64,000 bases of DNA from Tubiluchus corallicola (taxonomy: Eukaryota > Animalia > Priapulida): assembly GCA_030141605.1 (NCBI GenBank), contig JAQGDQ010000003.1, forward strand, positions 620,001 to 684,000, given 5' to 3'. The notes below the pieces were generated by a model, which was not told where the DNA came from, did no database searches, and saw nothing but the letters and a program-made list of their open reading frames with translations. This document shows, piece after piece, positions 13,201-63,517 of this stretch. Both the position numbers and the translations under genes were made by a program. How positions within the stretch are numbered: position 1 is the stretch's first letter; every line of letters begins with the position of its first letter.

Positions 13201-16200
13201 GGTAATGAGGTCGGAACTTGATACACTTTCCATCATCTGACAACTCGAACAACATTGATTTGTCATCAGGAGATTGACAATTTCCAGCAATTAATGCACG
13301 CCTAAGTTCAGCAGCTGCTTTAATTAAATTTGCCTGCAGATCTTGTAAATCTTTATTAACAATACCATGCAATTCAATTATTCCGGAAAAAGAATGTTCT
13401 TTAAGCGAAGTTGGCATTTCCTCATTGTGACCAAACAATGGTTTACTGGAATCACTCTTAAAGGAAGAAGACATTCCAGTGCGAGAGTGATCTTCTTCTG
13501 GCTTCTCTGACAAACAAGATATTACAGGAGAAACTCCTCGATCTACGTAGGAATGATTGACATTCTTGTCGCGGGAAGCTAAAGTTTCAACAACTAGTTT
13601 TCGTACAAGTTCTTTGAAATTATTTGGAAGAGAACTACTTAACAGATGATCAAGCACAGAAGACAATCTTTCGTTCCAGGACTTTATCAGAGTTTCTGGA
13701 CTAATTACTTTTAGCTTGTTTGCATCTTCAAGAGTGAAAGTTCCACTTTTGACAAAATCACCACGTTTCTTACAACTACTGGCAGCTGCATTGAAAACGT
13801 GACCGTTTTTCAAGTCGTTTTTAGCTTTCCTTTCTTGTGAAGCATTGTTAGATGAAACACTGCCCTCTTGGCCCAACAGCATTCGTTTTTCTTTGACGTC
13901 ACCCACAGATTTTGCATTTGCTTGAACAGATTTATCACAGATAGCCACTGCTACCATCATATCACTGTTACTTCGACTGTGAGCTCCAGTATCTTTCACA
14001 GCATTATTCCATAAGTCTCTAACAATTTCTAATTCTTTCTCAGAATTTCCTTTTACTTGTTGAATAACCCATGTTGGTATGCTTGCCGGAGCTTCGCCTC
14101 GTTCACTGCTTTTGATGGTAGAGTCACTATCGTCAGAACATCCAGAAACTTGTCTGTGGTTTGAGGCCATTTTCTCAGCCATGGAGACATTATCATTAGT
14201 AACAAGATTTGTTGACCGTTTTCCCTCACCAGTTGAGTACTGGAAAAAGTTCAATCCAAAATCATTTTTCCAAGTATTATTCTGTACTGATTCTGTGGTG
14301 GAATCAGTTTGTACAAGAGGTGCTGATTTGCTTTCTTCTGCTTGATGATGTTGCACATCATTTGCTGTTGAAATTGTCGATGAATGTAATGCGAAGATCG
14401 CTTCACTGCTGCTAAATTGTTCATTTGTCTGTTTTGTGTTGTTTTGTTCTGGAGAAATCAAAACAGAAGTGGAATGTGAAGGATCTTTGGCTTGTTTTGT
14501 TTCATTAGCCAGTTCATCATTTGTACAAGTATTTTCTGTAGTTGCAATTTGTGGTGAAGCAGAAACATGATGGTCTGACAAAAAACCTGATTCCTCTTTA
14601 TCAAGGACTTTTCGACTAAACCTATGAGTCATACTTAATGCGGTGGCTTCAGTTTTTTCTACAGATGAATTTTCATTGGGAGAAACAGGTGTAATATCAG
14701 TAATCTGCTTTTGCTTGTTTTCGACTTTGATTTCGGTTTTTGCTCGTCTAGCGTATATTCCCGGAAAAGCTGCAGCTGGAGCAGATCTGCTGCCAATTAC
14801 ATGAGGAGGAAAGTCAGGAGGAGCTGCGTCTGTAGAACCTGTTAATAAAAACAACTAATACCAGTCTTGCTTGTAAGCTTGCATATTGACTATTACCACA
14901 AGCTTTGTTAAACTTATCAAATAACGAACATATCTGGTACATACAATGACCATTCCTGAAACTAACGCAAAAACTAGTTATTACAGATACACCTAAACAA
15001 CATTTTGCGTTGGCATAACTGCATTTATAAAATTTGAGTACTACAACAGCTCAAGCACTTACTGACTCAACATTCAGCAAGTTTTCTTTTAACTTGCAAT
15101 ACGTATGTTTTTGCCACTATGAATACTGACGTCAAGTCTTGCACTTCTGTAGGAACACAGTGAAACCAACTATAGACCTCCAGCTAAAGAGAGACAAGCT
15201 AAGAAGTCAAGCTAAGTTGAAGTCAAAATCATGGGTGCACAGAGATCAGAATCACTTTTGATCACATAAGAACCAGAATCACATAATGTGTAATTGCTTG
15301 ATGATAAAATATTTGAATAAAAGTTTAGAAATTTATTTTAAGTTACTGAGTCATACAAATTTAGCACACTTATTGTAGCTTTTTTCACTCAACAAATTCC
15401 TTAATTCATTTGTTGCCTTCCTATGCACAAATGAATACGAAACTTGTACTACAAGTAAGAGGGAAATTAATTTCAGACTGCTTGTCTATCTGAGTGAACA
15501 AAAAGTAAAGTTACCCAAAGACAGCAGACATCAATAACCAATCTTTGTGCAAGGTGTTCATTAAAGAATAAAAAACATCATATGCAGCACTTAAAAGACT
15601 TCCATTGTCATGGTAATATTGCCTCTATTTGGAAGAATGTTCACGGCTACAAAATCTTAGCTTGCATTAGTGCAGATGTGTTGCAAGCTTACTATGCTTA
15701 CATTTATATTAGAAGACATAATTTTTGACTTAATGGAGTGGTTCATCACGAGCCAAATTTTGTTAATGCAATTTTAATAATACAAATGCGAACCAAATAT
15801 GATTACTGCAAAATTATATACAAACAAACTGCTTAAGGCAATGGCTTACAAAAACTGAGAACTGCATCAAAAGTAATGCCTAAAGGTGACAGGATTGATT
15901 ACAGTGACTATTGAAAATCTGTCATGGTAGAAGTACCAAGTTAAGTTAACCATTTCTCTTAAAACATCCCCTTACACGGCATCAAAAAAGCAATAACAAT
16001 AGATGTTTAGCTTGTGTAAACTCGGAAAGGCACACAGATCACTAGTTCATTTCAGTCTAATGCTGTGTCTTTGTCTGATTTGTAAGTTCATTATTCGGAA
16101 GAGTGTATGCAAACAAATCTGAGCAGACCTAATTACTACTTGCCAACAATCTAAAAGCAGTATTATCCAGCACAAAGAAAAATGAACATAACCAAGTACA

Positions 16201-19200
16201 AGAATGATGCTGTGCTCAAGCAGATGCATAGCAACATTTATTTACAGATACCAAATAAAACTGATTACATGTATCCATACCTGAATGAGAACTTTCCTCA
16301 GTTGAGCTATGAGAATAAGTCGAACCTACACTAAGCACTCTGGCAGGATGAGATTCTGTACTGCTATACTGACCCACCTTTACCCTGCAAAATTGCCAAG
16401 ATAAATAGAATAAATAGCTAAACAGTCATTTGCCCCAAAGCAGCTCAATAAATATCCACTAAAAATACAGCTGCATTTTCTTAAAAACATTGCCGAGTTT
16501 GGCCCTGTATAAAGCCACTTAAATTTTCTAAAACTTTTATCCTCTTTTCAGTAATAGTACACCTTCACAAAAACAAATTAATTTACACTGCTACTCATTT
16601 ATTATACTTTTATGCAGTACAATATTTTCTTATCAACAACATTTTCTCACAATACTGAAGTGAAATCAATGCTAGTGTAATCAGCACTCTGTGAACAATA
16701 AGTTCAAGCGGCCCTGCAGGTCCAATACAAGTCTGACCTCACTGCGCAAGCTACAAATTAACCAAGCAATTTATGGCAATTAACTATCGGTATTCAACAC
16801 ACACAATGAACGTCTAAATACTAAAAGCATGTTGAGGAAATCAATCAATTCTACTTTACAAGTTGAAGTCAATTTTCAATGAGCTCGTGTTTTACGAGTC
16901 GTAACAGAAAATATGCTTTAACCCTGCTCAGCTTTGTCGTTGACCTATTCAGGACATTGAACTCTTTTAAAAGTGTAAGATTAAATGGAGAAACTCTTGG
17001 ATTGGTTTTGGCTAATGCTTATTTGCTGTTAATTAAACAACTGTTCTTTGTGGTTCAAAATAAGTATAAAATTATAAACTAACAAAAACGTTTCTATATT
17101 GAGTGGTATACGCTTTTTTGACAAAAATATCAAACTGGCATTAATGCATGCAAAAAAGCTTTTTTCAAAAATGATTACTGTGTCAGAAAATAAAATACAG
17201 GACTGTACTACAGAAAATACACAAAATACATCCATGGAATGTTATGGGATAACAAAGCCTTAATGGTGAAAAGACTAATAAAAGGTGTTCTCTGGACACT
17301 AAACAAAGCCGTGTTGCGATGCCTTTTTTAAAATAGGACCGCTATTGCATGTGACAAAAAATGCCAAATTATTTTGCGCAATACGGAAATTTGCTATAAC
17401 TGCCACACATTAAAGCTAACAAAAAGGATAACTAAAACACCACAGCTATTTATATATTTGTATTTCTCAATAGCAGGAAATTTGGTCACGTTCAGGAAGT
17501 TGAAATAGATTGATGTGAATAAGCGAATAGTTTTTAACATCAGTAATACAATATTCTTGTTCTTACATGTTCTTAGTATACTTGTTTTTGATCCTATTTC
17601 TAGTTAATCAGCACACTGTTGGCCAACAGTATTCACTTAACCACAAACAAACTAATTACAACTTTGTGAATACAGTGATAAATTTAGCAAATTTACCAAA
17701 AAAGCAAAAAACGGGGAAAATTAATGCATTTCAACTGTGTACTTTAGTTAATCATGCATTTTTATAATGCTGACGAATTCAGTTTGATGGCCGCATAGAT
17801 AGATGTTGCAGTATAGTCAAATATACATGTTCCAACACCAATTTTTAAGAATACTTACAAATTATTTAAAATAAGGAAAACACAATCCTGACATACCTTG
17901 TTTCATTAATAGAACTCCTTTTTTCTTGTGTGTCTTCAGTTTCCTCATCACTATCAAGAGAAGACCACGGGAACGCGGACCTCGGCATCCAAGCTCGCTT
18001 CACACGAAACTTAGTCCCACCGTTCTCTTTTTCCAAGATCGTATCTTTGTCATTAGAACTGTTGTATTTTGCTCTACTTAAAGAGACCTCACTCGAATCT
18101 TTGCTTTCAAACTGCGTCAGAGAACTAATGCTACTATGTTGTTTTGCACAATCACCAGTATACAGTAGTTCTGCAATTGCATTGTCTGCAGCTCGCTGCA
18201 ACATGGCTCCAATACCTATCCTAGCTTCTTGAGTGGATTCTTCTACAGTGTCAGTAGAAAAATCGTGCTGGAGTCTATTTCCATTGTCTGATGTTGGTGC
18301 TAACTGAGAGTCACTAAACTGTCTTCTGTGAATACTTCTAGAATTAGCAGTTTGAAATGATTTAGAAGCACTCTCTTGGTTAGATGTTTTAATGTCAGAT
18401 ATTACCAACTCATCATCAGGAGCAGTGTTTTCATCGTCCAAACTACTGTCACTTGAAAGCTGATAACTTAGTCTCTTTATAACACTTACACTTGGTAAGC
18501 AAGTGCAAGGTACAGCATTCTCATCTCTTTTTACCACATTTTTAATATGGGCATAAGTTAACTTTTTAGTTTGTAATGGCAATGACTCTGTTGAAGCTGT
18601 GGGATAACCATCATTTTTAACACTACTGCCAAGCAGAAACACTGGCTTTAAACCTGAATGTATTTTTCCACCACTTGAACTGTCACGCATGTCAAACTCT
18701 GATTTTAATCTCGTCTCAAACCGTGAAAAATCTTTTCTATTATGTGTACTGTTGTCCCTTAACTCTTGAAATGTAACATGCATCTTTTGTTCTTTGTCCA
18801 CCATATGTAATTCTGCAGTTTTAAATGTGTCGTCAAATGCCAAAGACAGAGCATTTTCTGGTTCTGGCAAAACAATATTATCAGTAAAGTTAGGACTAGC
18901 AGATCGACAACTTTTAGATTGCCTTATCAAACTTTCATCTTCCTTTTCTGAAGCATCTGAACTTCTTAAATTGTAACTGTTGTCATTACCAATATCATCA
19001 TCTTCAACAAAAAATGCTCCAGCTATGAAGGAATTATCTTTAGTAGCCTCTGAAAATGCTTTTTTATTTTCCAATTCACAAACTCGTGTTTTATTCTCTC
19101 CGAATTTTCTTGAATCAGATATTGTTTCTGTTACATCAGTCACTGCCAAAGCAGTTCTAGAAGTATTAACCCCAGAAATGGTATCAAACTGTTGCTTGTG

Positions 19201-22200
19201 GAATTCATCAATATTCTGATGTGCAGATATGTCTTGACAAGGCACAGTAGTGAGTTCCTGAGTACACTTATTATTCTTTTTATCAAGAGTGTCTTTAGAG
19301 TTTGAGTAGCCAGAGGAGCTAGGAAGACTTCCAAAGTTACTTTTATTTTGTGAAATACCTTGCAAAGGAGGTTCAGGACTACTCCGAGCTGAACTACTTC
19401 CGCCATCTGATACAACCAGAATATTCTTGTTAACATACTCAGTTCTCTGTAGTAAATCTTGAACTCTTTCTTCTAGTGTAGAACTTGGGCGTACTTCCGT
19501 TATGGCAGTCTCTGGAGCTAATTTAGCTAAAATAATGGGTGCATGCAAAGAATTGGCTGTTTTCTGTTCTTCATATGCCGACTTTACTGCTTGTGATGTA
19601 GCATCAATATTCATCATAACCAAGGTGGATCCTTGCTCAGCCTGTACGGCTGGAATGTTGGATGTTTCATTACCACTGATTTTGTTTGATGACTTACTGT
19701 TAGAATTCAGTAATTTTTTGTCTTTCTCTTGTTCAGCTATTCTCACATCCAGTTGTGTTGTGGCCGTTGGAAGAGTTTCAGTATCATTCACTTTGTAAAG
19801 CGATGAATCTGACATAAATTCAACATAAGCTTTATCTGCATACTCTTTTATTTTTTGGACAAATTCTGCAATTTCTTCATTTTTGCTAACAAGAAAGCCT
19901 GGATCAGATACTTTTATACTGCTTTCATTTTCTTGATGAGCAGCATCTATAGTGTCAGGTTTTTCCATTGTTAAACGATCTTGTGAGTTGCTGCTTGGCC
20001 AATTAAATGACATGTCGTCTGACAAATCATCTCTTCTATGCACCTTTTCACCATTAACCTTACAGTCATCCACTCGCTCTAGCATTTCAGTATCGTTGAA
20101 CTGGATTGCTTTATCTTCTGATGTTTTTATGTCCTTTTCCTCATTAAACCTGTCAAACATTTTCTTTTCTACTGATGACGATGGAGGCACTTCTACAATC
20201 GATGATTTTGATTCATTAATCACAGCTGGTATAGAATGAAAGGACAGTTCACCAGTATTTTGTGTCAAGACAACTGTCTTATGACTGCTAAGTAAATAGG
20301 TATCAATGCTCTTATCCAGATTTCCACTAGCATCTGTCTTATAGTCATCACCATCTACATCTGACCGCTGCATAGGAGATGGTTTCAAATACTGAGACAG
20401 ACCAGTGTCATCAATTTCTGAAATCTCCATAACAGTAGAAAGAAAAAAGCTAGGTTCCATATTATCAAAAGCCTGTGTACCCGCATTTAAGCTGGAAGCG
20501 TCCTGTGATAAAGGGGTCAAATAATTCTGTAACAGATTTTCATTTACTGGAACGTTATTAAATTCAGGAAGGGCAACAGGAGTTGACTTCCCACTAGACG
20601 TTTCACTTGTAGAGTCTGAACTTTGGATCCTCTTTTCGCTTTTACTCTGAGATCTGTGAGAAATTTTGAGATGCTGGTTTTCTCCTGAAAACTTAGTTTG
20701 CAAGACCAGTTGGTTTTCTTCATCATCAGCACTGTAGGCATCACTGTACTGAGTATCAGTATCACATGATGATACATTTGAAGTTGGTTCTATTACATTT
20801 ACCACATTGTCCGTGACATGTTTATTTTCAAAGACAGGCTGCAACACTAACTGTTTATCACCACTGGGACAACTCAAAAGCAAACTATTGGCATTTCTTT
20901 CTGTATAATTTGCATTGTTTTCAAAAAATTTGTTTGCCTGGCACATATTCAAAGGGGCATCACCACCGCCATTGTGAAAAGTACTCGGAATCAGAGTTAT
21001 AGGAAAGCTACCACGCCTAACAGAATACTTTTCGCCCTTGTACAAGTCTGGTTCAGATGTACTAATGCGATTATGAAACATCATTTCTGGAGTCACTTCT
21101 GTATAGAAACTGGATTTTTTACTATTGTGTGAAAATGGGCGAGGAATTCTTGATGGCAGTTTCTTGGGTAATAAATTCATGGTACTGATTTTACTAACCC
21201 CACCGGAGTGAATGAATTCGCTTCTGTTACCAGCAGAGAAACTACCAACATCATTACCTGTATTTGATAAAGTAGGACTACGATCTGAATTAGAAATACC
21301 TTCTTTCTCCCTTGAGGGATAATACAGGCTGTTCTCTCTATCTGGAAGCTGTTCATAAATATTTTCCCCTACTTTCCGGGAAACTCGCCATGCAAGAGAG
21401 TCCATTGTACTAGCCGAGTCCACTGAACTTGGTGAAGTTAGACCTGAGCTTATTGCTCCCACATGTAATTTTCTTTGTACAGAGGAAGACAAAGCTTCGA
21501 GTCTGTCGGATGCATGCTTTATGCCAGAATATTCATCATCACTGTGATTGTTATCCGAAGAATAATTTTCATTGACTGACTCACTAGAAAATACATAATT
21601 TTCTCTTTTCGCCTTTCTCACATTAGTAGAATCAAAATTAGTAGACATCGTAAAGTCTTTAACAGTATCTAAATGAGGTTTTAAATCTGCTTGCTGAAGT
21701 TCATGTGACACAGGCGTAAGGTTTGGCAATGACTCCTCAGTTGCTTTTTGATCAATTTTTGAAGTGAATTCATTACCGGGTAATACAGTCAGTGGAGCAT
21801 TACTAAGGAATTCATCAGTATCAGCATAAGCTGTGTAGTTAGTACTCCAAAGCTCACAAGAACCGTCTTCCCCCTTTTCACCTGTTACCGATACTTCATG
21901 TTCTTCCACTTGGCCTAAAAATAAAAACAAAAAAATGCTTTAAAGAAATTTTACTATTGTCAATAGAAGCAAAACTTTAGCATGCTTCAACTAATAAACA
22001 TAAACATGCAAAACATTCACCAGATACAAAGAAAGGTATCTACCTAAAATACTTAAAATGAATATATCTAAGTTAAGGTGGGAGATCGACAAGTCAACAA
22101 AAGGCTTAAGTTACAGTGAGACAGTATCACAGCTATTAGAAACATATAATAACACACTTTTTAAAAATAAAACCAAAAAAATGGATTTCATTAGAGCTAA

Positions 22201-44634: not shown

Positions 44635-47600
44635 TTATGAATTATCTTCTAATTCTTGGTTGTTAGAAATGTACGAATTAGGTTTACGTGCTATAAAAAA
44701 CACACAGTCATATGTATACTTCATCATTGAGGCAGGATTTTGAGCATAGCCTGTTGATATATGTTTCTGTTCCACCTGCAACATAGATGGTAAGAAAGTA
44801 CAAATCAAATTATGATCTTGAAGTATAAGTTATCATATTTATGGGTTCATAAGAAAATATTCTAAACTGTGAATAGCGACCACTTTTGGATCCGTGAGAT
44901 TAGACCAATTCAAGAGCAAAAATACTCGATGTTATTTTGGTAATTCTAACTAATTCTTTGCAAATGAAAGCACCTCTAGTGTGTGCAAAATTTAGATATG
45001 TGCACAAAAACTTGATATTCATTGCAGGTATGCAGGTGTCTAAAACTAAATAAAAATTAAGCAGCTATCATGATTAATTTTGCTTTGCTGCGATATCGGA
45101 TTACTAAAAATCTAAATAACCAAATTAATTATGTAATATTAACAAACATATACAGCTAGCAGCTTAACAGTGTACTGAATAAAAGCAGATGCTGTTGAAA
45201 GATTAATCAATAAATGAAAAAGACTCGTCTCTTTGTTGTGATTTGAGGACGACTAACAATATCCTGATCTAGAGATTAGTTAACATTAATTTTAAGATTT
45301 TTCTCTCTAGCTAATTAGCACCATCACATTTTTCAGGAGGTCCCCGAAAGAAAGAATACATGATCACTTTAGTGGCCTGCGACAAATTCCTCGCATGCCA
45401 ACTCAAATTCTTACACGATACTCTCCATGATGGATACTTCCTTGCTTCCTCATAGGAGAGGGACAGTCGTTGCAGGTAATTGCTAAAAGTTGTCACTCAT
45501 CACATAACACCTACACTGGACATTTTGACAAGTGTTGAAATCCTAGAAGGGGGTTATATAATATTTTTGTCAATGTTTGGTTGTCAATAGGTGAATTACC
45601 CCTATTTTGGACATGCTCTCTGGATAACCTTCGACCTTGACCATCACCTCGTCCCACAAGTTATTTCACACCAAAATTCTGAAGCCTAACCCAAGTGGTT
45701 CAGATATGGCTTAAACTCAAACTGTGGATTGTCGATGGACTATGGATGCTTAAAAGACTCCTCACCAGCAATAGCCGAAAACATGGACTGACGATTGTTT
45801 AAATTACCCTTAGTTTCGCATGCAAAAATCATCTTTTAAGGACAGTAAATCATCTTAGCATTTTCTAATGTAGTAAAATAGAAGATCAAACTTGATTTCA
45901 ATGGTATTGAAAAAAGTTCTTACCGTTATATCAAAGCCTATTTGTTTTACAACATGTCTGATGTCTTCATAACTAAGTTCCACTGACGATTCGCCCTCCA
46001 TGTCCGAGTAGTGATACAACAGTGGACCTAAAAAGACGATTAAAAAATTATCATGACCAAGACTATTCAATGACAGTGAATGTTTGTTCTAAAAGCAAAT
46101 GCCACAGTTGAGACTAAAGGATGAACTAGATTTTAACCACTTTTGACATCTCATAAATACAAATCCAGAAAAATATAATTGTAATTGAAATAATATATGG
46201 ATGTTCGTTTTGAAGCAAGGAAACATTTTTCAGCAAAAAATTACGCAAACAACAATCTCACAGCAGTTGCCCTGTATCTGGAAATGTCATGAAAAGCAGC
46301 AACAAAATGATAAACTGTCAAATATTTAATCATAAATGTAGCAAAAGACCCTTGATAAGCAAGAGAATCAGCCCTGGCTAAACAGACAGTGCAATTTTGC
46401 AATGTGCAAAGACAAATGGGTTATGGTAACAGGCTAAGTCACCAGTCCAAATCTAGCTGTATTACTCTAGGCATGGTCAGACAGTGTGCTTGCAAACCAA
46501 AACTGCTAATATGTCGGTATAGTTGAAACAATGTTATGATGATTCAAAGTAGAATGCATCAAAGACTGGGTTGAATACCAATTTTTTTTTCTACAAAAAC
46601 AAATGCTAAATACATTGAACTTTCATATCCTAGCATCAAATCGCCAGCAAAATATTTAAATATACTAAAAATCTAATTTTTATACCCCTTCCTTGCCAAA
46701 CTGCCTAAAAAAATTAGTACTGCAATTAGGAAAAACTCAAACTCAGATACTAGCTCGGTGGAAGCAGCTATTTTGCTTATATTTTTTTCAGTTATCAATC
46801 CCAGATCCTTGTCTGGAAGAGCCTTTCGCTGGATTTAAATGCAACTTCAATGTACTCTTACATCTGTTTGTAGGTTGGCAAGTATTTTCTAGAAACAGGA
46901 CAGCAACAATGGCATACCTTAACAATGATTTTCTCAAGATAATGTTTTTTATAAAGCAGCTTGCATCTCAACTTCAACATAGATTATCACAGCTTCGAAA
47001 TAAAGTAGAGAGATGAGCTTGATATCAAAATTATCCTCATGAAATGAAGATTCAAGGTATGTGAGTGTAACTACAAAAGCTTAACTGCCGATTTATGGAG
47101 TTTTCTGCAATGATGATACATGTAGTTAATTTACAAAAATTGCTTCAGAAATTGGATATCTTCAAGCAGAAGATAGGTCAAATCAATTTAAGAACATTTC
47201 TTAGCACAAAAAGTACTTCTAATAAGCAGTTGTTCACTGGAGAACTGTGCCAAATACAGTCAGAGTACTAGTATCTGTACATACTGCAAGCTTAAGAATG
47301 TATCTAGACAATCATTGGTAAACAGAAATAAAGTAGGGCCTACTGCAAAAACTTTCATAGCATCAGCAATAATTTCATACACATCAACCTAGTCTTCATA
47401 AACAAAGAGCAGCTTTTAGAAATAATCTACACAAATATATATTACCTTTACCAAATATATAAAAGCAGACTTACCCAAATTCATCCATAGGCCTCCGGGT
47501 TTTAATATATGCCAAATTTTTTCAATATATTCTATCACATTTCGAGCCGTGTCAAGGAAGAATACAGTTGCTATACAATGCCAAGCTTCTGAAAGCACAG

Positions 47601-50600
47601 AAAAAGTTTCGAGTATTTCTAAGTTTCTAGAACTAAACCTAACTGCTTTAAAAGATAACCGATTTGGTGATCTTTGCCAACCAATATTGCAATTTTGTAT
47701 GTACAGTGTTATATAATAAGGAACACATTTAATAAAAAACAAATAATAGCAAAAACAATTAATTAGTAATTACTCATATTTTGCCGGAAGTTGATAATTG
47801 CTGACAATGGTGACAATATTTAAGAGCCCACAATTTTTTTTCAAACATGCATACATAATTAAATATAGTTTTTATTTTTTTATTAAATAATAATCATTAA
47901 AAATTTAAGATTAAAATTTTGAAAAATATTTGATAAAAATTTAAAAAGTTGAACATTATACTGAACCTTTGTTTTATGTGAGGAATCAAGTTGATCAGAC
48001 AACGAAAAACAAAACCTTGTACAGCCTTCAATTTAGCAGCTGCAGCTCACTTTATCTCAGTGAAGTGACTATAAACACTTATGATGCGGAACATAGGAGA
48101 AAAGGGATTTTGTTTACATATTAAGCTGGTGAAAAGTTATACAAAAAAGTGACTGCATTTCCAAGGTATCAATAAACAAACAAGTAATCTGATTACTGGA
48201 CTTTAAAGCAAAGTAGTTACGTTACATTACATTATTAGTTATATACTTGAAAATGTGATAGTATTGCTCAATGTCTTAACATTACTCACATACCGAATAT
48301 CCATGGGTACAAACTGCATATTTTAACTATTTACCAGGCAAGGTATAAATTTCTAGAAAGTCACCGGCAGCCATTGAAAAATTGCTGTCTGGGGTAAGTG
48401 TGGATGGATTAACATCTGGAATAGTGACTGCTCTGACTTGGTCTTCTTTTGAAAGCCGATTGCAGTATTGTTGCACAAATGGGTGGATAGTAAATACATT
48501 CACATCTGAACATCTATATGTCAGAATATAAAAATTAAAAAAAATAATATGAAAGTGAATTCTTTGGCAGGAGAAATGCAAACTCTGCTAATGATGGTGT
48601 AAGTACCAATAAAACCAAAGTGAAAAAAAAGATGAGATAAAATGTTAAAAACCCTAGATACACTAATAGAATTCATGTAGTTAGTCATGTTAAGAGAAAA
48701 GCTATATACGTCATAGTTGTAAATAAGTCCCTGCTGAGGCAAATAGAAGTGCTTATATTAAGGCACTGCATTTTTAATTAATGTTTTGAATTGAACTACT
48801 GTTCAAGAAAAAATTACTGTGGAATTTGCCTAATGCCATTAAATTATTAATGCAAGCATATGACTTCATAACAATTTCTTGCTTTAAAAATTTATATTAC
48901 AGTCAGGAATAAACAATTCATTCTTGAAATACCTGTTGAGAATAAAATACGATGCAAAAAGCATAAATAAGCTCCATTCATTGCCCTGGCAAGTATAGCC
49001 TAGACTGGCAATTTCATACGCAAGCCTTCCTAAACCAGCACCCGGTACAAGAACAGATATATTACTCGGATCACTGAAATGAAAGAAAATGTTTGATGAA
49101 GAAAGGGGAAGATTAGGAATAGTGTGTGTTTGTGTAAAGATCAGGACAAGTAGGTTGTTTTAAAAGTCACAATTTTACTTATTTTACTTTTGACATAGCA
49201 AACTTTTTGTTAAACATGGGTCTTAATAAACCTGGCTTAGTGCCTGGATTTTCTATTAGAACACAGTCTTTTTTTCTTATAAGTTTGCCTGTTCTTTTTT
49301 CAATTTTTAGTAATTCTTTCTATTCGAATTGCTTTTTTAAGTCTACCGTTAACATCTTCTGATCACCAACTGCAGAAGAGTTTTTTAATTCCTGCACGCT
49401 ACTGCCAAAATTTAATTGCATCATTCATATTTTGTTAGGTCCAACACTAATGAAATAAAAACAACTTTTTATTCATTGTCTGCAACATAACATGTTATTA
49501 GATCATGATTTTAGACAAAGATGAAATAATTAAAATAACATGGTCCCATGAAAAAGACAAGTGTGCAGTTGCATTTTCCTTAATTTTACAAAAGAACTGT
49601 ACAAGTGTCTCAAAATATTGTTGGTAAAATCTGTTTCTCAAAGAACACTACAAGAATCTACAATAACATCTTACCATTCATTGGGAGGAAAATTTGCTAA
49701 TATGTTGTCAATAATGGGTTTGTAACATGTATTTCGTTCTTCGAGACCTTCTGAACTCCAGTCTCTAACAAACTGTTTCATAGTACTATGAACCTTCTCC
49801 ATGTCAAATGTACTAGCCAGAGGTTCCTTATCATAAACATCTTTCTCATTTGTCTACAAAGTTTAAATTAAATATTATTTGCATGAATAACTAATCAAAC
49901 AGTTGACAGCCTTTGTGAAAAGTAACTTACTGTAAAAACATCTAATGAAAGAATGAAACTTTAGGCAAAGAATAATTTTATTATTGACAAGTCAGTAAAG
50001 CTTCCACATGCTCTGGAATAATTTTTTTCAAGATCTCAGCTGACAGTTTAACTTGGGGTTTTGAAAGACAATTAACGTCAATGTTAGCCATCCTTAGGCA
50101 AGCTTTGTTGACTGCACAATCAGCCGTGCGATATTCTTGACACACCTGCAAAGCCTATGTATGGCTGTTCTTTCAAGACATTAGCTGCATCTTTGTATTG
50201 CTGGTATACATTATACTGTTATGAAAAATGCTCAACTTTTCATTAATTCGCTGGAGTGACACACGCCTGGTTCTAGATTTTATTGCAGACTATTGGTTGT
50301 CTGTATTGTCGATTGAAATTGTAAGTGAATTAATGGAAATACAATAGTCTAATTTTGTCTTTTATATAGGAAGAAATATACTATGCTTATGTTTATGAGT
50401 TGCGGATTAAATCGTTTTGCTATCAGTAAAATATGCAGATTAGTTTAATTTATGACTTGCAAGTTAGATAAAGACATCTAGTTGATTAACTTTAAAAAAA
50501 GAATAAATTAATCTAACGAGGTTAGGTCGATCATATGATGCTGCTTTAATGATCGCAAATGTCATAAATAGCCTACCTGAGGTGAGATGAAATTTATAAC

Positions 50601-52846
50601 TTCAAATTGAGTTAACAAGTATAAATGATTCAATCCTTCAAGGTTAAACTACATTTAAAAATTACAGCCTGAGCACCCAGATCTATGTAGGTTTGCACAG
50701 GTTATAGGAACGGCAATACATGCACATGCTTACAGGGTTTAAAAAATATTATCATAATCGAGTACTTTAAGTTTAAGTCAAAACCGTCTTTAATTGAAGT
50801 AGTCTGGAACTAATATAAAAATAAATTGCTTAATAGCCTAAGCCAATTCTGCAGTGTATTTTCCAAGTTAAGTGCACTTTTTTGTTCACACAACAATCTT
50901 GTATCTTTATACGAGGATACAAAGATCTAAATTTTGTTTCGTGATAACTAAGTGTGCTACGCAAAAAGTACAATGCCTTAACATAAAACAAAAATGACGC
51001 TTAACTCAAAAAAGACTAAGTAATGCAATAAGACTGAAAAAACTGTGCAAACATGGGTAAATACATAATTTTATGTACAATTGTGAATTGAAAACACAGA
51101 TGACAGACACAAGTGATGCACAAATGCACTTACCGAGAGTGACCAGTAGTCAACATTTTCAAACATGTGATCAACAGTGGCAATAATACATTTGATGATT
51201 TCGAAGTTACTGTCAATACACGCACGAACTTCCTTTAAATACTCTAGAAAGTTAGGAACAAGCCTCTGATGACGTTCGGGCATTCGTTTAAAATCTCGTT
51301 CAGTGCGAGCTATCTTCAAATATGAATGTTTTCTGTGAAATTAAAAATAAGTTTTCTTACTTGTATATACATATATAACAAAGGCTGGCAAAAAAGTTGG
51401 TAAAAATTTTCATTAACAGGGAGACATAGCCATGTGGAGCATATTAAGTTGATTGACATCTTGTTTAGGTAATCTTACATGTAACTAGTTAGAGAGTTTC
51501 TTGGGTCACATTAGTCATGTACTTGATGTTACGCAACCAGAATTCAGAATTAATGATTTGAGGGATTATTGAGGGACTTGGGAATCAAATATTTGATCAT
51601 ATTTTTGGCAGCAGGCATACATACAAGTAACAAACATTGGGATCAGTCCTGGTTAAGTAACTAGTATCTAGGCATATAAAACATAAATTCAGGAGTGGTG
51701 TCAGGAGAGAAAAGTAATCAGACATTATATACATGCTTCCGATCAAATCTTTGTGAATCACACATTTCGTATAAAAATCAGCAATGGCAAGTGCTTGATT
51801 AATAGTTCAGAAACCACTAAAGTAGACTAACGAGTTTTGATGATCAGTGACTCTGTCTAACAAACAAATAACCAAGTTAGAAAACATGTCCATATTTCAG
51901 CTCCAGAGAGAAGTGACAATATTTTAACATAAATGACATTTTCTGGATTCTGACTGAACAAAGAAGAATGGTACTATGCATTCTTAGGGGATACAATACT
52001 AGTAAATCTCAAACATTGTTATGAGAATATTCTTGTGGCATTGCCTAATTATAACGTGACAATACAGTTTTGCATTCCGTTAGCTCATTTGGCTACTCTG
52101 GGTCCTAAATAATATGTATTACAAGAAATGCGAAATCATGAGTTATGCAATCTTAGCCCTATTTAAAGGCATTGTTGGAACTAGGTTGTAATCAGAGTCA
52201 CTACAGTAATCACATTACTGGTTACTTATGGGCAATTAAAATTTAATACCTGTAAAAATCATATGTCACAAGGGTTCTACTTTTCAAAGCACATGAAACC
52301 TACGTACATCATGTATGTATACTAACATCATGTATGTATACTAAGTGTAATTATGAGTCAAAAGTTTGACTTTTTATGACTTTCAAACGAATAAACTTTC
52401 TTGAAGAAATATCTTCTAGCAACCAAAAAAGTAGTCCACAATGCAAAAGAATGCAGTGCTCCCCTAGACCCCTAGCTAATTTTTCTTTGGCCCACAGTTC
52501 TTCTAAACCCTGTATCTGCCCCTGTTCAGTATACAGTACTAGTAAGTATGAAAGCAAAAGCTCAAATTTGCTTTAAATTTAGTAATTACCAAGGAGACAG
52601 CCAATCTTTTTTTCAGACGCGGTTACTGTGATTTTAGAAAATGAGCATACCAAATAATTTGATCAATGCACTATTACACTAACGTCAGTCTTGATCTTGT
52701 AATATTTTTTCATTATCGTACATGAAATTTTGCTTGATTTTGTCTTACTTATAATAGTGAAAGGCATTCAGAACTCTGTAGAAATGTTCGCGCTCCTTTC
52801 TCTCTTCTTCTTCATCAAACAGTTTTGCTGTATCATCATTGTCCAT
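44635..52846 (-). CDS. CARNMT1: Carnosine N-methyltransferase (N2227-like SAM-dependent histidine methyltransferase), 384 aa
   Basis: Exons 5'->3': 52846-52749, 51332-51134, 49853-49675, 49073-48933, 48513-48335, 47588-47475, 46027-45924, 44775-44635 (TAA). Motifs [55 protein letters not shown] and NLGPLLYH. Confidence 0.97.
45600..45760. mobile_element. Remnant of a dispersed non-autonomous repeat of the 'tgaccttgacc' type
   Basis: accttcgaccttgacc...accaaaattctgaag...agtggttcagatat...gatggac resembles a repeat layout I recall as common in lophotrochozoan genomes; no termini recognisable. Confidence 0.35.
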
Positions 52847-55248: not shown

Positions 55249-58200
55249 TCATGATTTTTGTCTAATGAAATCATTGTAGCCTTCCTTGTTACGTGCTACT
55301 TCAACTGCAAGGAACTGAATTCTTGTAACTAGAAAAACAAAACAAGAACAGGCTGTTACGTGCTACTTCAACTGCAAGAACCACATAAAACAACGGTCAA
55401 CTAACTAATGGTAATGCTAATGGTAATGGTAAACTACTGAGACCACTGAATGCAATACGGCAAAAAACTACCTGAAGAGAACAACCCATCTGAAGAATGA
55501 CACTTGCCTCCGACCAAAGCGGACTGTGATGTGAAATAGTATGATACACAGTCACAAGTCAGCTTTGGCTGGATTGTAAGCATCGACATGTCTTTCACCA
55601 GAGTCACACAGAAAAACACCAACCTAAAATGGTATTTTCTTCAGAGTAGTCTTTTTTGCAGTCGATTCGCAGCAAAGTGCCAAAATTGAATTCCTCTACC
55701 TTCCCATCATAGTGACTGCAAAATTTGCGCCATAACTGAAAAAACAAAAAATATAAAATATAAAAAATATAAAATGACAAATAATATTAAGCAGATGAAA
55801 CTTTGCAGCTAGTGCATCACCAAAATGTCTGTGATATGAAATTGATGATGAGCACATCAGCAGACGATTTGGTCCACACAGTACAAACGGAGCCACTGCT
55901 TGAATACGCAAAAAATGCACAGGGCTGAAGAAGGCAGCAATGCAAAGTACATCAATAGTAGTAGAAGGAAGAAGAACAAGATGCTGAAGCATCACCAAAT
56001 GGTCTGTGATATGGAAACGAAAAACACACCAGCAGACAATTTGGCTGACACATTAACAAACAACTGCCATGCAAAGTACATCAGCAGAAGCACTGAAAAA
56101 GGCAGAAACATGTGGCAATGCAAGGCTTCGAGGAACAAGATGCTGCTGCATCACCAAATGGCCTGTGATATGAAAATGAAAAGCACACCAGCAGACAATT
56201 TGGCTGACACAGTAACAAACAACTACAATGCAAAGAACAGTAGCAGAAACACTGAACAAGGCAGTAATAAAAAAAGCTTTGAAGAACAAGATAAGATGCT
56301 GCTGCATCACCAAATGGTCTGTGATATGAAAATGATGAAGCACATCAGCAGACAATTTGGCTGACACAGTAACAAACAACTACAATGTAAAGTACATCAG
56401 CAGAAACACTGAAGAAGGCAGTAAAAAAGCTTTTGAAGAACAAGATAAGATGCTGCTGCATCACCAAATGATCTGTGATATGAAAATGATGAAGCACACC
56501 AGCAGACAATTTGGCTGACACAGTAACAAACAACTACAATGCAAAGTACATCAGGAGAAGCATTGAAGAAGGCAGTAACAAATAATGGCAATCCAAAGCT
56601 GTGAAGAACAAGATGCTGCTGCATCACCAAATGGTCTGTGATATGAAAATGAAGCACACCAGCAGACAATTTGGCTGACACAGTAACAAACAACTACAAT
56701 GCAAAGTACATCAGCAGAAACACTGAAGAAGGCAGCAATAAAAAAAGCTTTGAAGAACAAGATAAGATGCTGCTGCATCACCAAATGGTCTGTGATATGA
56801 AAATGATGAAGCACATCAGCAGACAATTTGGACGACACAGTAACAAGAAACTGCAAGATGTGTAGCATAAGGAAAATGCAAAGCTTGCGAAGCACAAAAT
56901 ACAATTGCACCACCAGCTGGTTTAAGAAATGAAAAGCACATCAGCAATACACCAACGAAAAACCGTAAAAAGAATAGCTGTGTGAAACTGTAAGGCAATA
57001 CAATTGCCTTACAGCAGACAATTTAGCTAACACAGACTTGTGACTAAAACTAGAGAACTGATGGCCCCTCTAAACATGATCATCAATAAGAAAAGCATGT
57101 ATGAAATGGTATTTACATCAAAACAGCAGCATCTGGCAACAAATCTTGCATCACCAATGTGACTGTGATATGAAGAAACAGAACATTTCACAGAAACTTT
57201 GGCGAGCAAAAAAAGTTCAGTCCAAATCCCAATTTCAAGCAAGTATTAGTATTAAACTAATGCTGAATTCACTTTTTGATGCAAATAGAAAACAGCCATA
57301 TTACCACTTTAGCATCAGCAGATTTCAATTTTTCCTCATCCACAACATCTACGTGAAAATTTGCGAATGCTTCCCGAAAATGCTTATAAATGTCTTCGTC
57401 ATGAGGCGTCAGACGAAGCAAGCGTGGGTCCACTGCACACAGAAGCTGCAATGAAAAATAAACCAACTGTAATAAAAGCATCACGTTACCACGTTTTAGA
57501 AAATAAATTTCATAATTAAGACGCTCTGTTGCAAAATTACAACGCGCTTAGTTTGCAAGGATACCAAATTAAAAAAGTTAACCAAGAACACGAAAATTCT
57601 AAAAAAAGGCGTTCTATATACTCACGTTGAAGTAAATTTCAGCATGTTCATAAGCTTTCACTGCCCACTGAAGCTCCAACTGAGGCTGCAAAAGAAAAGC
57701 GCACAGGCGTCATTCATGGTTATGCGGGCTTACACGATGTCCTGCTATACCAACTACACACGTTATATATACATGATCCGTGAAGCCTGGCTGAGCGCGC
57801 CAGCGTCGTTCTGTACATATGCATAAATGAGCTAAGAGTCTGCCGCGATCAGGCAGGCCTTAGTACCACAGCTTTGGTAATCGACTCTCTGATAGATCTC
57901 TACTTCATTCAGCTAATAGATACGCTTAATGAGGGCACAAAGAACGACTGGGCAAAGCCTCGTTAACACCAAGTAGCAGCCAACAGCTGGTGGTCAGGTT
58001 ACAATAATTCCCGGGCGTTGCTGAGACGTTAGAGGGACGCTACGACAATGTGGGCGATAAAAATTCACCCATCACGTAAAGCAGCAAATAAACAAATAAT
58101 AGATAGCATCATAGCAAAGAATTTGACAGTAGGGGTTACAGAAACAAATTCGCATAATTTCCTTTTCTGCACAATTATCAACCTTGCACTATACACTATA

Positions 58201-61200: not shown

Positions 61201-61902
61201 CCCGGGCCTTGCTGGGGGAGCTTACATCGCTCAACCAGACCCTCTAACTGCTTGTGCGTCAAATTTTTTAAACTTTGGCGGTGCCCATGAATGATTAGTT
61301 TTCGAGTAAATTTCAAAGTTACAATTATAATTACAAAAGAGAACACAGTTTAATGTGTTTTTCAATTTTGTATTATTGAAAGGTGTACACTCACTGTACA
61401 GAGAAAATGATACAAAGAAAAATTGACACCAACAGCATCATGCATTCTTGCGTTGTTTGATGGCTAAACAAAGATAATATAAAATTATGAAACAACAATA
61501 TAATTAAAATGTGTGCATGAATTTATAATGAATCATAAAGTCGCATAGAGGCGTACTAAAGTATTTTACCAAGTCATATTATATCGCCTCATTTGACTAA
61601 TTATACTAAAGTAAATACTAATTCCCTAAACTCATTTGCAGCTCTGATTAAACAAATAATATTTTCAGAGAAACTACTGTCACCATTTCTATTAAGGAGA
61701 GCAGCTCTAGCAAGCGTAACATAACTATTTTGCGAATATAATTTCTGATGTCGGTTTATGAAACATTTGGGTCAAAATCAAAAGGCAATGAACTTACCAA
61801 AGTATATGTACTAATAATATGCATCTATAAACTTACATTATTTCCAAATGATTCAGCTGGTTGCGACAGGACAGAAGCTGCACTAAGCATCCCATCAACC
61901 CC
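55249..61902 (-). CDS. PBDC1: Polysaccharide biosynthesis domain-containing protein 1 (UPF0368/CXorf26); first exon not identified
   Basis: Exons 5'->3': 61902-61837 (GVDGMLSAASVLSQPAESFGNN), 57685-57626 (PQLELQWAVKAYEHAEIYFN), 57445-57305 (LLCAVDP...KLKSADAKV), 55735-55624 (LWRKFC...FNFGTLLRIDC...EENTIL), 55328-55249 (TRIQFLAVEVARNKEGYN...*). Colinear with human PBDC1; AATAAA on the minus strand at 55165-55160. Confidence 0.95.
55509..55573 (-). ncRNA. mir-2: Divergent miR-2/miR-11-family pre-miRNA in the last PBDC1 intron
   Basis: Hairpin uccagccaaagcugacuugugacugug-loop-cacaucacaguccgcuuuggucgga. The 3' arm CAUCACAGUCCGCUUUGGUCGG has seed AUCACAG and matches miR-2 (UAUCACAGCCAGCUUUGAUGAG) at 16 of 22 positions. 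Confidence 0.7.
55813..55880 (-). ncRNA. mir-2: miR-2/13-family pre-miRNA, array copy
   Basis: 3' arm UAUCACAGACAUUUUGGUGAUG (55836-55815) pairs with 5' arm accaaaucgucugcugaugug. Confidence 0.75.
55988..56052 (-). ncRNA. mir-2: miR-2/13-family pre-miRNA, array copy
   Basis: 3' arm UAUCACAGACCAUUUGGUGAUG (56011-55990) pairs with 5' arm gucagccaaauugucugcuggugug. Confidence 0.8.
56146..56212 (-). ncRNA. mir-2: miR-2/13-family pre-miRNA, array copy
   Basis: 3' arm UAUCACAGGCCAUUUGGUGAUG (56170-56149); hairpin as in the other copies. Confidence 0.8.
56302..56369 (-). ncRNA. mir-2: miR-2/13-family pre-miRNA, array copy
   Basis: cugugucagccaaauugucugcugaugug-cuucaucauuuu-cauaucacagaccauuuggugaugcag forms about 26 pairs with 2 single-nt bulges and 1 mismatch; predicted mature 56326-56305. 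Confidence 0.85.
56456..56523 (-). ncRNA. mir-2: miR-2/13-family pre-miRNA, array copy
   Basis: 3' arm UAUCACAGAUCAUUUGGUGAUG (56480-56459). Confidence 0.8.
56619..56683 (-). ncRNA. mir-2: miR-2/13-family pre-miRNA, array copy
   Basis: 3' arm UAUCACAGACCAUUUGGUGAUG (56643-56622). Confidence 0.8.
56773..56840 (-). ncRNA. mir-2: miR-2/13-family pre-miRNA, array copy
   Basis: 3' arm UAUCACAGACCAUUUGGUGAUG (56797-56776); 5' arm cugugucguccaaauugucugcugaugug. Confidence 0.8.
56908..57035 (-). pseudogene. Disrupted miR-2 array copy
   Basis: The mature arm is decayed and lacks the seed (caccaccagctggtttaag). The star arm is split (cacatcagca ... cagcagacaatttagctaacacag) by about 65 bp of extra sequence. 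Confidence 0.55.
57146..57209 (-). ncRNA. mir-2: miR-2/13-family pre-miRNA, most 5' and most divergent array copy
   Basis: 3' arm UAUCACAGUCACAUUGGUGAUG (57170-57149). The 5' arm cucgccaaaguuucugugaaaug resembles canonical mir-2/13 star arms (caaagugguugugaaaug). Confidence 0.8.
57690..58085. promoter_or_regulatory. CpG-rich intronic island, candidate internal promoter or enhancer
   Basis: GC and CpG content is sharply higher than in the flanking intron. Contains a minus-strand TATATAA-like element near 57764-57771, an E-box cagctg and Sox-like acaaag/acaatg motifs. Confidence 0.45.
59533..60565. repeat. Two pairs of diverged direct duplications rich in aggtca/tgacct motifs
   Basis: caggtca...ttctttaattt.gga.a.gggtgc.tgacctggtga occurs near 59533 and 59855. 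ctgaca.tttgcag...caattattc..atgctag...ggtaaaata...tgagttgt.agt.ggtgaca.gtca occurs near 60170 and 60426. Confidence 0.75.
61140..61290 (+). mobile_element. Remnant of a dispersed GC-rich MITE-like family; a related end fragment lies at 52456-52523
   Basis: ggccggggctcacccgggccttgctgggggagcttacatcgctcaaccagaccctctaactg is a degenerate version of a widespread invertebrate repeat; 52456-52523 carries gtgctcccctagacccctagct...tatctgcccctg. Confidence 0.55.
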
Positions 61903-63347: not shown

Positions 63348-63517
63348 TTACTCTATACCTTTTTGTCCACTACAAGATGAAACTTTTATGTTACTCTATA
63401 CCTTTTTGTCCACTACAAGATGAAACTTTTATGTTACTCTATACCTTTTTGTTCACTAGAAGTTAAAACTCTTATGCGACTCTATCCTTTTCGTCCACTG
63501 GATGCTAAGTTTTTATG
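63348..63517. repeat. 43-bp minisatellite, 4 copies
   Basis: ttactctatacctttttgtccactacaagatgaaacttttatg at 63348 and 63391 (identical), and diverged copies at 63434 and 63477. Confidence 0.92.

What the first reader, a model, noticed from the sequence alone, without database searches (positions are those of the whole stretch)
55813..57209. An apparent satellite in a PBDC1 intron is a tandem-amplified miR-2/13 (K-box) microRNA cluster
Seen: on the minus (host sense) strand each ~155-bp monomer carries a ~65-nt hairpin of about 26 pairs. Its 3' arm begins UAUCACAG and continues ..C(A/C)AUUUGGUGAUG-like; 8 copies are intact. Known: miR-2/11/13 share seed AUCACAG, mature from the 3' arm, target K-boxes (CUGUGAUA), are protostome-specific, and miR-13 reads UAUCACAGCCAUUUUGAUGAG. 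Inference: a recently expanded polycistronic miRNA locus that raises K-box miRNA dosage and would probably be hidden by repeat masking.
Basis: partly seen in the sequence, partly recalled or inferred. Interest (0 to 1): 0.9.

Follow-up and report, generated by a model that had tools for sequence, protein, structure and literature searches.

The report
Tandem miR-2-like microRNA cluster in PBDC1
Nine microRNA-like hairpins carrying the miR-2 (K-box) seed lie in two introns of the PBDC1 gene of a likely priapulid worm, six of them as a young tandem repeat, and they are likely a working microRNA cluster of a well-known kind in a previously unreported host gene.

Summary
A ninth (CAUCACAG, missed) lies in the next intron, and a decayed unit lies between copies 1 and 2. 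Only copies 2-7 form the 154-163-nt tandem array. All nine fold like pre-miRNAs (z -3.0 to -5.4), with predicted 57-61-nt precursors. Copies 2-6 carry the Drosha CmR motif in register. Stems vary less than spacers (8/64 vs 34/76 columns) and have no indels. Rfam mir-2 matches all nine, but at 17-31 bits, below the 45.5 cut-off, and covariation is inconclusive. The host groups with Priapulus caudatus on a one-gene tree. No mir-71 hairpin lies in the window. Best reading: a divergent MIR-2-family cluster, co-transcribed with PBDC1, growing by unequal crossing-over under birth-and-death turnover (0.75). Expression is untested because no small-RNA reads were available, and selection for dosage is not shown. 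Tandem mir-2 clusters are well known. What is new is the host gene, the lineage and the satellite-like youth of the array. Interest 0.35.

The parts
57149..57205 (-). Copy 1, predicted pre-miRNA (mature 57170-57149); divergent, outside the tandem array
   Evidence: (mir-2 31.2 bits)
56880..57035 (-). Decayed unit(s): 5'-arm stub, 12-bp inverted repeat at 56988-57014, loop remnant without seed
   Evidence: blastn pieces; fold; sequence
56776..56835 (-). Copy 2, predicted pre-miRNA (mature 56797-56776)
   Evidence: (27.1 bits)
56622..56678 (-). Copy 3, predicted pre-miRNA (mature 56643-56622)
   Evidence: (21.1 bits)
56459..56518 (-). Copy 4, predicted pre-miRNA (mature 56480-56459)
   Evidence: (17.1 bits)
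56305..56364 (-). Copy 5, predicted pre-miRNA (mature 56326-56305)
   Evidence: (26.7 bits)
56149..56207 (-). Copy 6, predicted pre-miRNA (mature 56170-56149)
   Evidence: (21.9 bits)
55990..56048 (-). Copy 7, predicted pre-miRNA (mature 56011-55990)
   Evidence: (26.6 bits)
55815..55874 (-). Copy 8, predicted pre-miRNA (mature 55836-55815); divergent
   Evidence: (29.3 bits)
55510..55570 (-).
   Evidence: mir-2 31.2 bits, mir-11 28.6 bits; z -5.4
55968..56846 (-). Tandem array, 154-163-nt unit (also a 317-nt dimer period), holding copies 2-7
   Evidence: unit alignment (copies 2-6 are 88-96% identical)
55736..57304 (-). PBDC1 intron (1,569 nt, GT..AG) holding copies 1-8
   Evidence: contig records run on from 57305 to 55735 in two runs (table 8)
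55329..55623 (-). PBDC1 last intron (295 nt, GT..AG) holding copy 9
   Evidence: joint 55328-55624 in two runs (table 5)
57305..57445 (-). PBDC1 coding exon upstream of the cluster
   Evidence: Pfam PF04669, E 2.2e-13
55624..55735 (-). PBDC1 coding exon between copies 8 and 9
   Evidence: Pfam PF04669, E 9.1e-14
55249..55328 (-). PBDC1 last coding exon with stop codon
57626..57685 (-). PBDC1 coding exon (inferred from reading frame and splice sites; not scanned with Pfam)
61837..61902 (-). Likely first PBDC1 coding exon (inferred from frame and splice sites only)
55587..55597 (-). 11-mer identical to the first 11 nt of silkworm miR-71, without a mir-71 hairpin; relic or chance
   Evidence: 0.13 expected in the window; no mir-71 hit

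Best explanation
Nine seed-bearing hairpins lie sense in two PBDC1 introns and are likely a working polycistronic cluster of divergent MIR-2-family (K-box) microRNAs, predicted to be transcribed with PBDC1, cut by Drosha and Dicer into ~22-nt 3'-arm products beginning UAUCACAG, and so predicted to repress mRNAs bearing K-box sites. Shown: seed, hairpins, intron position and orientation, tandem structure, and lower variation in stems than in spacers. Inferred: co-transcription, processing at the predicted sites, Argonaute loading and targets. The array likely grew by unequal crossing-over (long and short units alternate, one unit has decayed), with purifying selection on the arms and birth-and-death turnover of copy number. 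More miRNA output is a likely side effect, not a shown cause.
For: Seed positions 1-8 are invariant in copies 1-8 and positions 2-8 in all nine. Hairpin z-scores are -2.98 to -5.43, and none of the 16 other seed sites in the window folds alike. Rfam mir-2 is the best minus-strand match at all nine over the full model, E 0.0018-7 for the 2.2-kb search. With a 22-nt mature: star 22-24 nt, loop 11-16 nt, precursor 57-61 nt, 17-21 mature bases paired, within MirGeneDB ranges. The CmR motif as defined by MirGeneDB is complete in copies 2-6. Basal UG at -14 is present in 6 of 9 and apical UGU at 21 in 8 of 9 (those two canonical positions are recalled). Copies 2-7: 8 of 64 stem columns vary against 34 of 76 spacer columns (p 3.6e-5); copies 2-6: 5/64 against 21/76 (p 0.004); 0 gap columns in stems against 34 in the spacer. 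A diverged relative (run X5, 20 differences in 328 exon bases) keeps copy 1's 3' arm region at 55 of 57 bases, while about 90 adjacent bases do not lay, and keeps a two-unit tandem piece. The host groups with Priapulus (SH-aLRT 99), so it is a protostome, where MIR-2 belongs.
Against: No small-RNA reads were seen, so expression and cut sites are untested. Rfam scores (17.1-31.2 bits) are below the 45.5 cut-off, and in the whole-window scan the best E-value is only 0.054. Covariation is inconclusive: 5 pairs with two-sided change (17 of 500 shuffles), score 0.124 (52 of 500), and slid controls give 4-6 such pairs too. The copies are homologous, so motif counts and column tests are not independent. 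With a 23-nt mature the basal UG falls out of register. CNNC lies at +16 to +18 in only 4 of 9. In the X5 tandem piece only 12 of 18 differences are listed, all in the spacer; if the other 6 lie in the hairpins the contrast is not significant (p 0.078). The usual partner mir-71 has no hairpin in the window. Host placement rests on one gene, a quick tree and one scalidophoran row, with no named annelid or nematode rows.
Confidence: 0.75

Rival explanations
1. A local satellite seeded by one real mir-2-like hairpin: copies 1, 8 and 9 may work, while copies 2-7 are a neutral amplification that is weakly processed or silent and on its way to decay.
For: Whole units including spacers were amplified. 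One unit has already decayed. Copies 3, 4 and 6 have the lowest Rfam scores, 17-22 bits. No expression data exist.
Against: Among copies 2-7 the seed never varies, stems have no indels, and the stem changes in copies 2-6 are wobble-type or at a bulge. The array copies carry the most complete Drosha motifs. A two-unit piece persists in a diverged relative.
Confidence: 0.12
2. A separate, lineage-specific K-box seed family (as mir-6 or mir-11 are in insects), not a direct MIR-2 paralogue; the true mir-71/mir-2 cluster would lie elsewhere in the genome.
For: Below the Rfam mir-2 cut-off; weak hits also to mir-6, mir-11 and mir-43. No mir-71 hairpin in the window. Dispersed, diverged K-box loci are known in flies.
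Against: Similarity to the mir-2 consensus extends beyond the seed, on both arms (CAAA in the 5' arm, UUG..GA in the 3' arm; alignments). mir-2 is the top family at every copy.
Confidence: 0.08
3. The expansion is an adaptive, dosage-selected amplification; it is compatible with the best explanation and differs only in cause.
For: Four copies give an identical mature sequence. Marco et al. name dosage as one possible explanation.
Against: The same paper concludes that drift-driven birth and death dominates. A decayed unit sits in the array. No expression or population data.
Confidence: 0.25
4. An assembly artefact or chance: copies inflated by mis-assembly, or hairpins and seed arising by chance in a repeat.
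For: No listed contig spans the whole array.
Against: Units differ by 4-25% with distinct indels. A run from a second study (X3) covers 55322-56161 in one contig with 3 differences and shows deeper, collapsed pieces inside the array. Three divergent copies outside the array have the same seed and fold.
Confidence: 0.02

Closest known systems
mir-71/mir-2(/mir-13) cluster of protostomes (Rfam RF00047; Marco et al. 2012, PMC3384581; Marco et al. 2010, PMC2956262)
   Same: Same seed on the 3' arm, same hairpin layout, tandem paralogues on one strand, redundant mature products, birth-and-death turnover.
   Different: No mir-71 hairpin within the window. Nine copies, against one to eight per genome in Marco's sample and five in the insect cluster. 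Spacers are still alignable (88-96% unit identity), so the array is very young. It is hosted in PBDC1 introns (the usual host being a phosphatase-4 subunit gene is recalled; I did not find it in the passages read). Below the Rfam cut-off.
mir-13 subfamily
   Same: Copies 1, 2 and 8 show a one-base gap at the same place of the 3' arm against the Rfam consensus, while copy 9 does not; a one-base deletion marks mir-13.
   Different: mir-13 is described as arising in the insect ancestor and the host is priapulid-like, so the likeness is probably parallel.
mir-11 and mir-6 (dispersed insect K-box miRNAs; Mohammed et al. 2014, PMC4238352)
   Same: A K-box miRNA acquired by an intron of an unrelated conserved gene (mir-11 in E2f) and near-identical tandem copies (three mir-6). 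Copy 9 starts with C, as the Rfam mir-11 consensus does.
   Different: Insect-restricted, other host genes; scores 28.6 bits (mir-11, cut-off 45) and at most 21.3 bits (mir-6, cut-off 58).

Membership tests
MIR-2 (RF00047) | Seed AUCACAG at positions 2-8 of a 3'-arm product | tested here: met
   9 of 9 hairpins; the position assumes the predicted 5' end
MIR-2 (RF00047) | Covariance-model score at or above the Rfam gathering cut-off (45.5 bits) | tested here: not met
   17.1-31.2 bits. Not filed as an Rfam member; filed as mir-2-like, K-box seed family.
MIR-2 (RF00047) | Similarity to the family beyond the seed, on both arms | tested here: met
   Full-model (1-72) alignments; four mir-2 alignments were printed
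MIR-2 (RF00047) | Protostome host | tested here: met
   CARNMT1 groups with Priapulus caudatus, SH-aLRT 99, quick tree of 37 rows, one gene
MIR-2 (MirGeneDB) | Hit with the MirMachine MIR-2 model; orthology to Priapulus caudatus Mir-2 genes | not testable with these tools
   Models and entries not held; the supplement lists family names only
mir-71/mir-2 cluster | Linked mir-71 hairpin within 10 kb | tested here: not met
   No mir-71 hit; only an 11-mer. The window ends 6.8 kb upstream of copy 1, so that side is not covered to 10 kb.
Canonical animal miRNA | Hairpin with 20-27-nt arms, at least 16 mature bases paired, loop of 8 nt or more | tested here: met
   9 of 9 by prediction; arm and loop ranges; the 16-pair threshold is recalled
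Canonical animal miRNA | Microprocessor motifs in register (basal UG, CmR, apical UGUG, CNNC) | tested here: met
   CmR 5 of 9, UG 6 of 9, UGU 8 of 9, CNNC 4 of 9; copies are not independent
Canonical animal miRNA | Reads from both arms, homogeneous 5' ends, 2-nt overhangs | not testable with these tools
   All runs laid are contigs
Canonical animal miRNA | Compensatory covariation in the stem | tested here: inconclusive
   slid controls score as high on two-sided changes
mir-13 subfamily | One-base deletion in the 3' arm | tested here: met
   Copies 1, 2 and 8 in the printed alignments; not copy 9
mir-13 subfamily | Descent from the insect-ancestral duplication | tested here: not met
   Host is not an insect; origin as described
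mir-11 (RF00813) | Score at or above 45 bits; insect E2f intron | tested here: not met
   28.6 bits for copy 9; host gene is PBDC1

The most novel reading that the evidence does not exclude
In this priapulid lineage the ancestral mir-71/mir-2 cluster moved into PBDC1, lost mir-71 (leaving an 11-nt relic before copy 9), and is now expanding as a selected, expressed microRNA satellite, one of the largest single mir-2 clusters; its miR-13-type shortened arm would then be older than insects or have arisen twice.
Probability: 0.15. Interest if true: 0.6.

Novelty: new member of a known kind. Interest (0 to 1): 0.35.

Why it matters
If expressed, it is a snapshot of microRNA cluster growth caught early, with spacers still alignable, intact and decayed units side by side, and copy-specific arms. 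That makes the open question of dosage selection versus drift (Marco et al. 2012) testable at one locus. It also adds a microRNA annotation in a barely sampled ecdysozoan lineage and shows that simple-repeat masking can cover likely miRNA genes. It does not point to a new mechanism.

Tried and rejected
Own-genome search: no genome held, so other mir-2 or mir-71 loci of this animal could not be sought. Sequencing runs: no RNA holder listed; this is no evidence on expression. Low-depth intronic contigs in X5 were used only as relative sequence, not as proof of transcription. Metagenome scan for the mature pattern: 0 matches. Metagenome scan for PBDC1 relatives stopped at 31 of 64 parts with 595 candidate stretches and gave 1 distant locus (62% over 26 aa), which has no seed match. 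Protein search with the PBDC1 exon: 0 of 8 candidates passed. The ESM Atlas did not answer. The careful tree did not finish, so the quick tree is reported; 8 short unnamed proteins were in the blastp but left out of the tree, and 44 of the 120 listed homologues were used in all. My own covariance model found only its 9 training copies, next best E 0.25, so there are no further copies in the window. The other 8 TATCACAG sites are not precursors. Stop-to-stop ORFs across the repeat were not pursued: splicing removes the region, and I did not scan them with Pfam. No K-box core lies within 1.5 kb after the PBDC1 or CARNMT1 coding ends; targets were not otherwise tested. Covariation gave no support. 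Copy 7's star was mis-computed and redone. Earlier scan findings: none. Literature searches found no report of mir-2 in a PBDC1 intron or of a priapulid mir-2 array; the library lacks most subscription papers and the MirGeneDB site itself.

Full report
Observation. Each lies on the 3' arm of a hairpin with z -2.98 to -4.94. A ninth hairpin with the same seed behind a C lies at 55510-55570 (z -5.43). Of 25 ATCACAG sites in the window, the 9 in the cluster fold at -28.6 to -36.7 kcal/mol with 17-21 of 22 bases paired to the upstream arm, and the other 16 reach at best -21.7 and 14. Tandem Repeats Finder reports 5.5 copies of a 154-nt unit at 55978-56846 and a 317-nt dimer period. So only copies 2-7 are a satellite-like array; copies 1, 8 and 9 are older and divergent, and a decayed unit lies between copies 1 and 2. 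A model built from the nine finds no further copy in the window.

Host gene and organism. The flanking exons match Pfam PBDC1. Contigs in runs X5 and X6 join exons 57305-57440, 55624-55735 and 55249-55328; X5 is labelled 'DNA?' and X6 'RNA?', and I read both as probably cDNA. Copies 1-8 thus lie sense in a 1,569-nt GT-AG intron and copy 9 in the following 295-nt intron. Downstream lie CARNMT1 and an ALMS-motif gene. CARNMT1 is closest to Priapulus caudatus (64% in blastp, 468 bits against 412 for the next) and pairs with it at SH-aLRT 99 in a quick tree of 37 rows. The host is therefore likely a priapulid or another scalidophoran but not P. caudatus, whose genome is 45% GC against 30-40% here. 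This rests on one gene, with no named annelid or nematode rows.

Is it a microRNA cluster? Rfam mir-2 is the best minus-strand match at all nine hairpins over the full model, at 17.1-31.2 bits; none reaches the 45.5 cut-off, and over the whole window the best E-value is 0.054. With a 22-nt mature and 2-nt overhangs, the precursors are 57-61 nt, stars 22-24 nt and loops 11-16 nt, matching MirGeneDB norms. The CmR Drosha motif as defined there (C at -5, mismatch at -6/+4, purine at +5) is complete in copies 2-6. Basal UG at -14 is found in 6 of 9, apical UGU at 21 in 8 of 9, and CNNC at +16 to +18 in 4 of 9 (these three positions are recalled). With a 23-nt mature the UG register is lost. The copies are homologous, so these counts amount to a few independent observations.

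Selection. Across copies 2-7, 8 of 64 stem columns vary against 34 of 76 spacer columns (p 3.6e-5; for copies 2-6, 5/64 against 21/76, p 0.004), counting columns with at most one gap. The seed is invariant, and gaps fall only in loops and spacers. Run X5 differs at 20 of 328 exon bases, so it is a diverged relative. It keeps 57123-57179 (copy 1's mature arm) at 55 of 57 bases while about 90 neighbouring bases do not lay, and it holds a tandem piece over 55999-56187 whose 12 listed substitutions all lie in the spacer. Six further differences there are not listed, and in the worst case the contrast is not significant (p 0.078). Covariation is inconclusive. The array is unlikely to be an artefact: units differ by 4-25%, and a second study's run covers the lower half in one contig and shows deeper collapsed pieces in the array, though no listed piece spans it all.

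Mechanism. Shown: seed, folds, position, orientation, repeat structure and the conservation pattern. Inferred: PBDC1 transcription (or an intronic promoter) makes one primary transcript; Drosha and Dicer release ~22-nt 3'-arm products; four copies give one identical product and the others differ outside the seed; these would repress K-box-bearing mRNAs. For flies and worms, Marco et al. predict neural-development targets; Notch-pathway and pro-apoptotic targets are recalled. Unequal crossing-over explains the alternating long and short units. Expression could not be tested. I put a working MIR-2-type cluster at 0.75, a mostly silent array at 0.12, a separate K-box family at 0.08 and an artefact at 0.02. 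Dosage selection as the cause of the expansion is about 0.25.

Comparison and novelty. mir-2 copy number ranges from one to eight per genome, clusters arise by tandem duplication, the ancestral cluster includes mir-71, and mir-13, marked by a one-base deletion, arose in insects; turnover is judged mostly drift-driven. K-box miRNAs also colonise introns of unrelated genes and duplicate in tandem. This locus works like those. It differs in host gene, in lacking a mir-71 hairpin in the window, in its nine copies and in its youth. An 11-mer equal to the start of silkworm miR-71 lies 17 nt before copy 9 (0.13 expected in the window); it was noticed after the fact and has no hairpin. Because the Rfam cut-off is not met, I file it as mir-2-like (K-box seed family), not as an RF00047, mir-13 or mir-11 member. 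Nine searches found no report of this locus. MirGeneDB 3.0 includes P. caudatus, but its entries are not visible here and could already show an orthologous cluster.

Papers seen. PMC3384581: parts 1-2 of 4 and passages. PMC11701709: passages, section 9 and a supplement term search. PMC4238352, PMC2956262, PMC2500172, PMC4405270, PMC4019659, PMC12220506, PMC7523956, PMC10280001 (no mention of microRNA in the main text) and bioRxiv 10.64898/2026.09.16.752239 (its supplement on copy numbers was not seen): passages only. Figures were not available.

Verdict. Real feature, interpretation largely right, but a new member of a known kind rather than a surprise. Interest 0.35.

Noticed in passing
window 44680-52846 (-): CARNMT1 (carnosine N-methyltransferase) gene, at least 8 exons, directly downstream of PBDC1; used to place the host.
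   Followed up: yes
window 10456-21939 (-): Gene with an ALMS motif exon and two very long open exons (960 and 1357 codons) without Pfam hits, likely an ALMS1-like centrosomal protein (name inferred from the motif).
   Followed up: partly
window 55587-55597 (-): 11-mer identical to the 5' end of silkworm miR-71, 17 nt upstream of copy 9, with no mir-71 hairpin.
   Followed up: partly
window 56988-57014: Perfect 12-bp inverted repeat inside the decayed unit; run X3 has an 18-base deletion at 57000, and X5 diverges just there, so the unit is decaying differently in different lineages.
   Followed up: partly
window 57690-58100 (-): GC-richer stretch with a TATA-like run at 57763-57771, inside the long PBDC1 intron about 560 nt upstream of copy 1; could be an internal promoter for the cluster (speculation).
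   Followed up: no
window 55354-55378 and 55287-55311 (-): About 25 bases of the last PBDC1 exon are duplicated in the intron just upstream of its acceptor, giving a possible alternative AG.
   Followed up: no
window 55538: Runs X1, X2 and X3 all read another base than the window here (loop of copy 9): an allele or an assembly error; it does not touch the arms.
   Followed up: partly
window 4199-4267: Rfam mir-297 hit (36.6 bits, cut-off 90) over a TG-rich microsatellite; most likely spurious.
   Followed up: partly
window 63348-63499: 43-nt tandem repeat, 3.6 copies, 90% matches.
   Followed up: no
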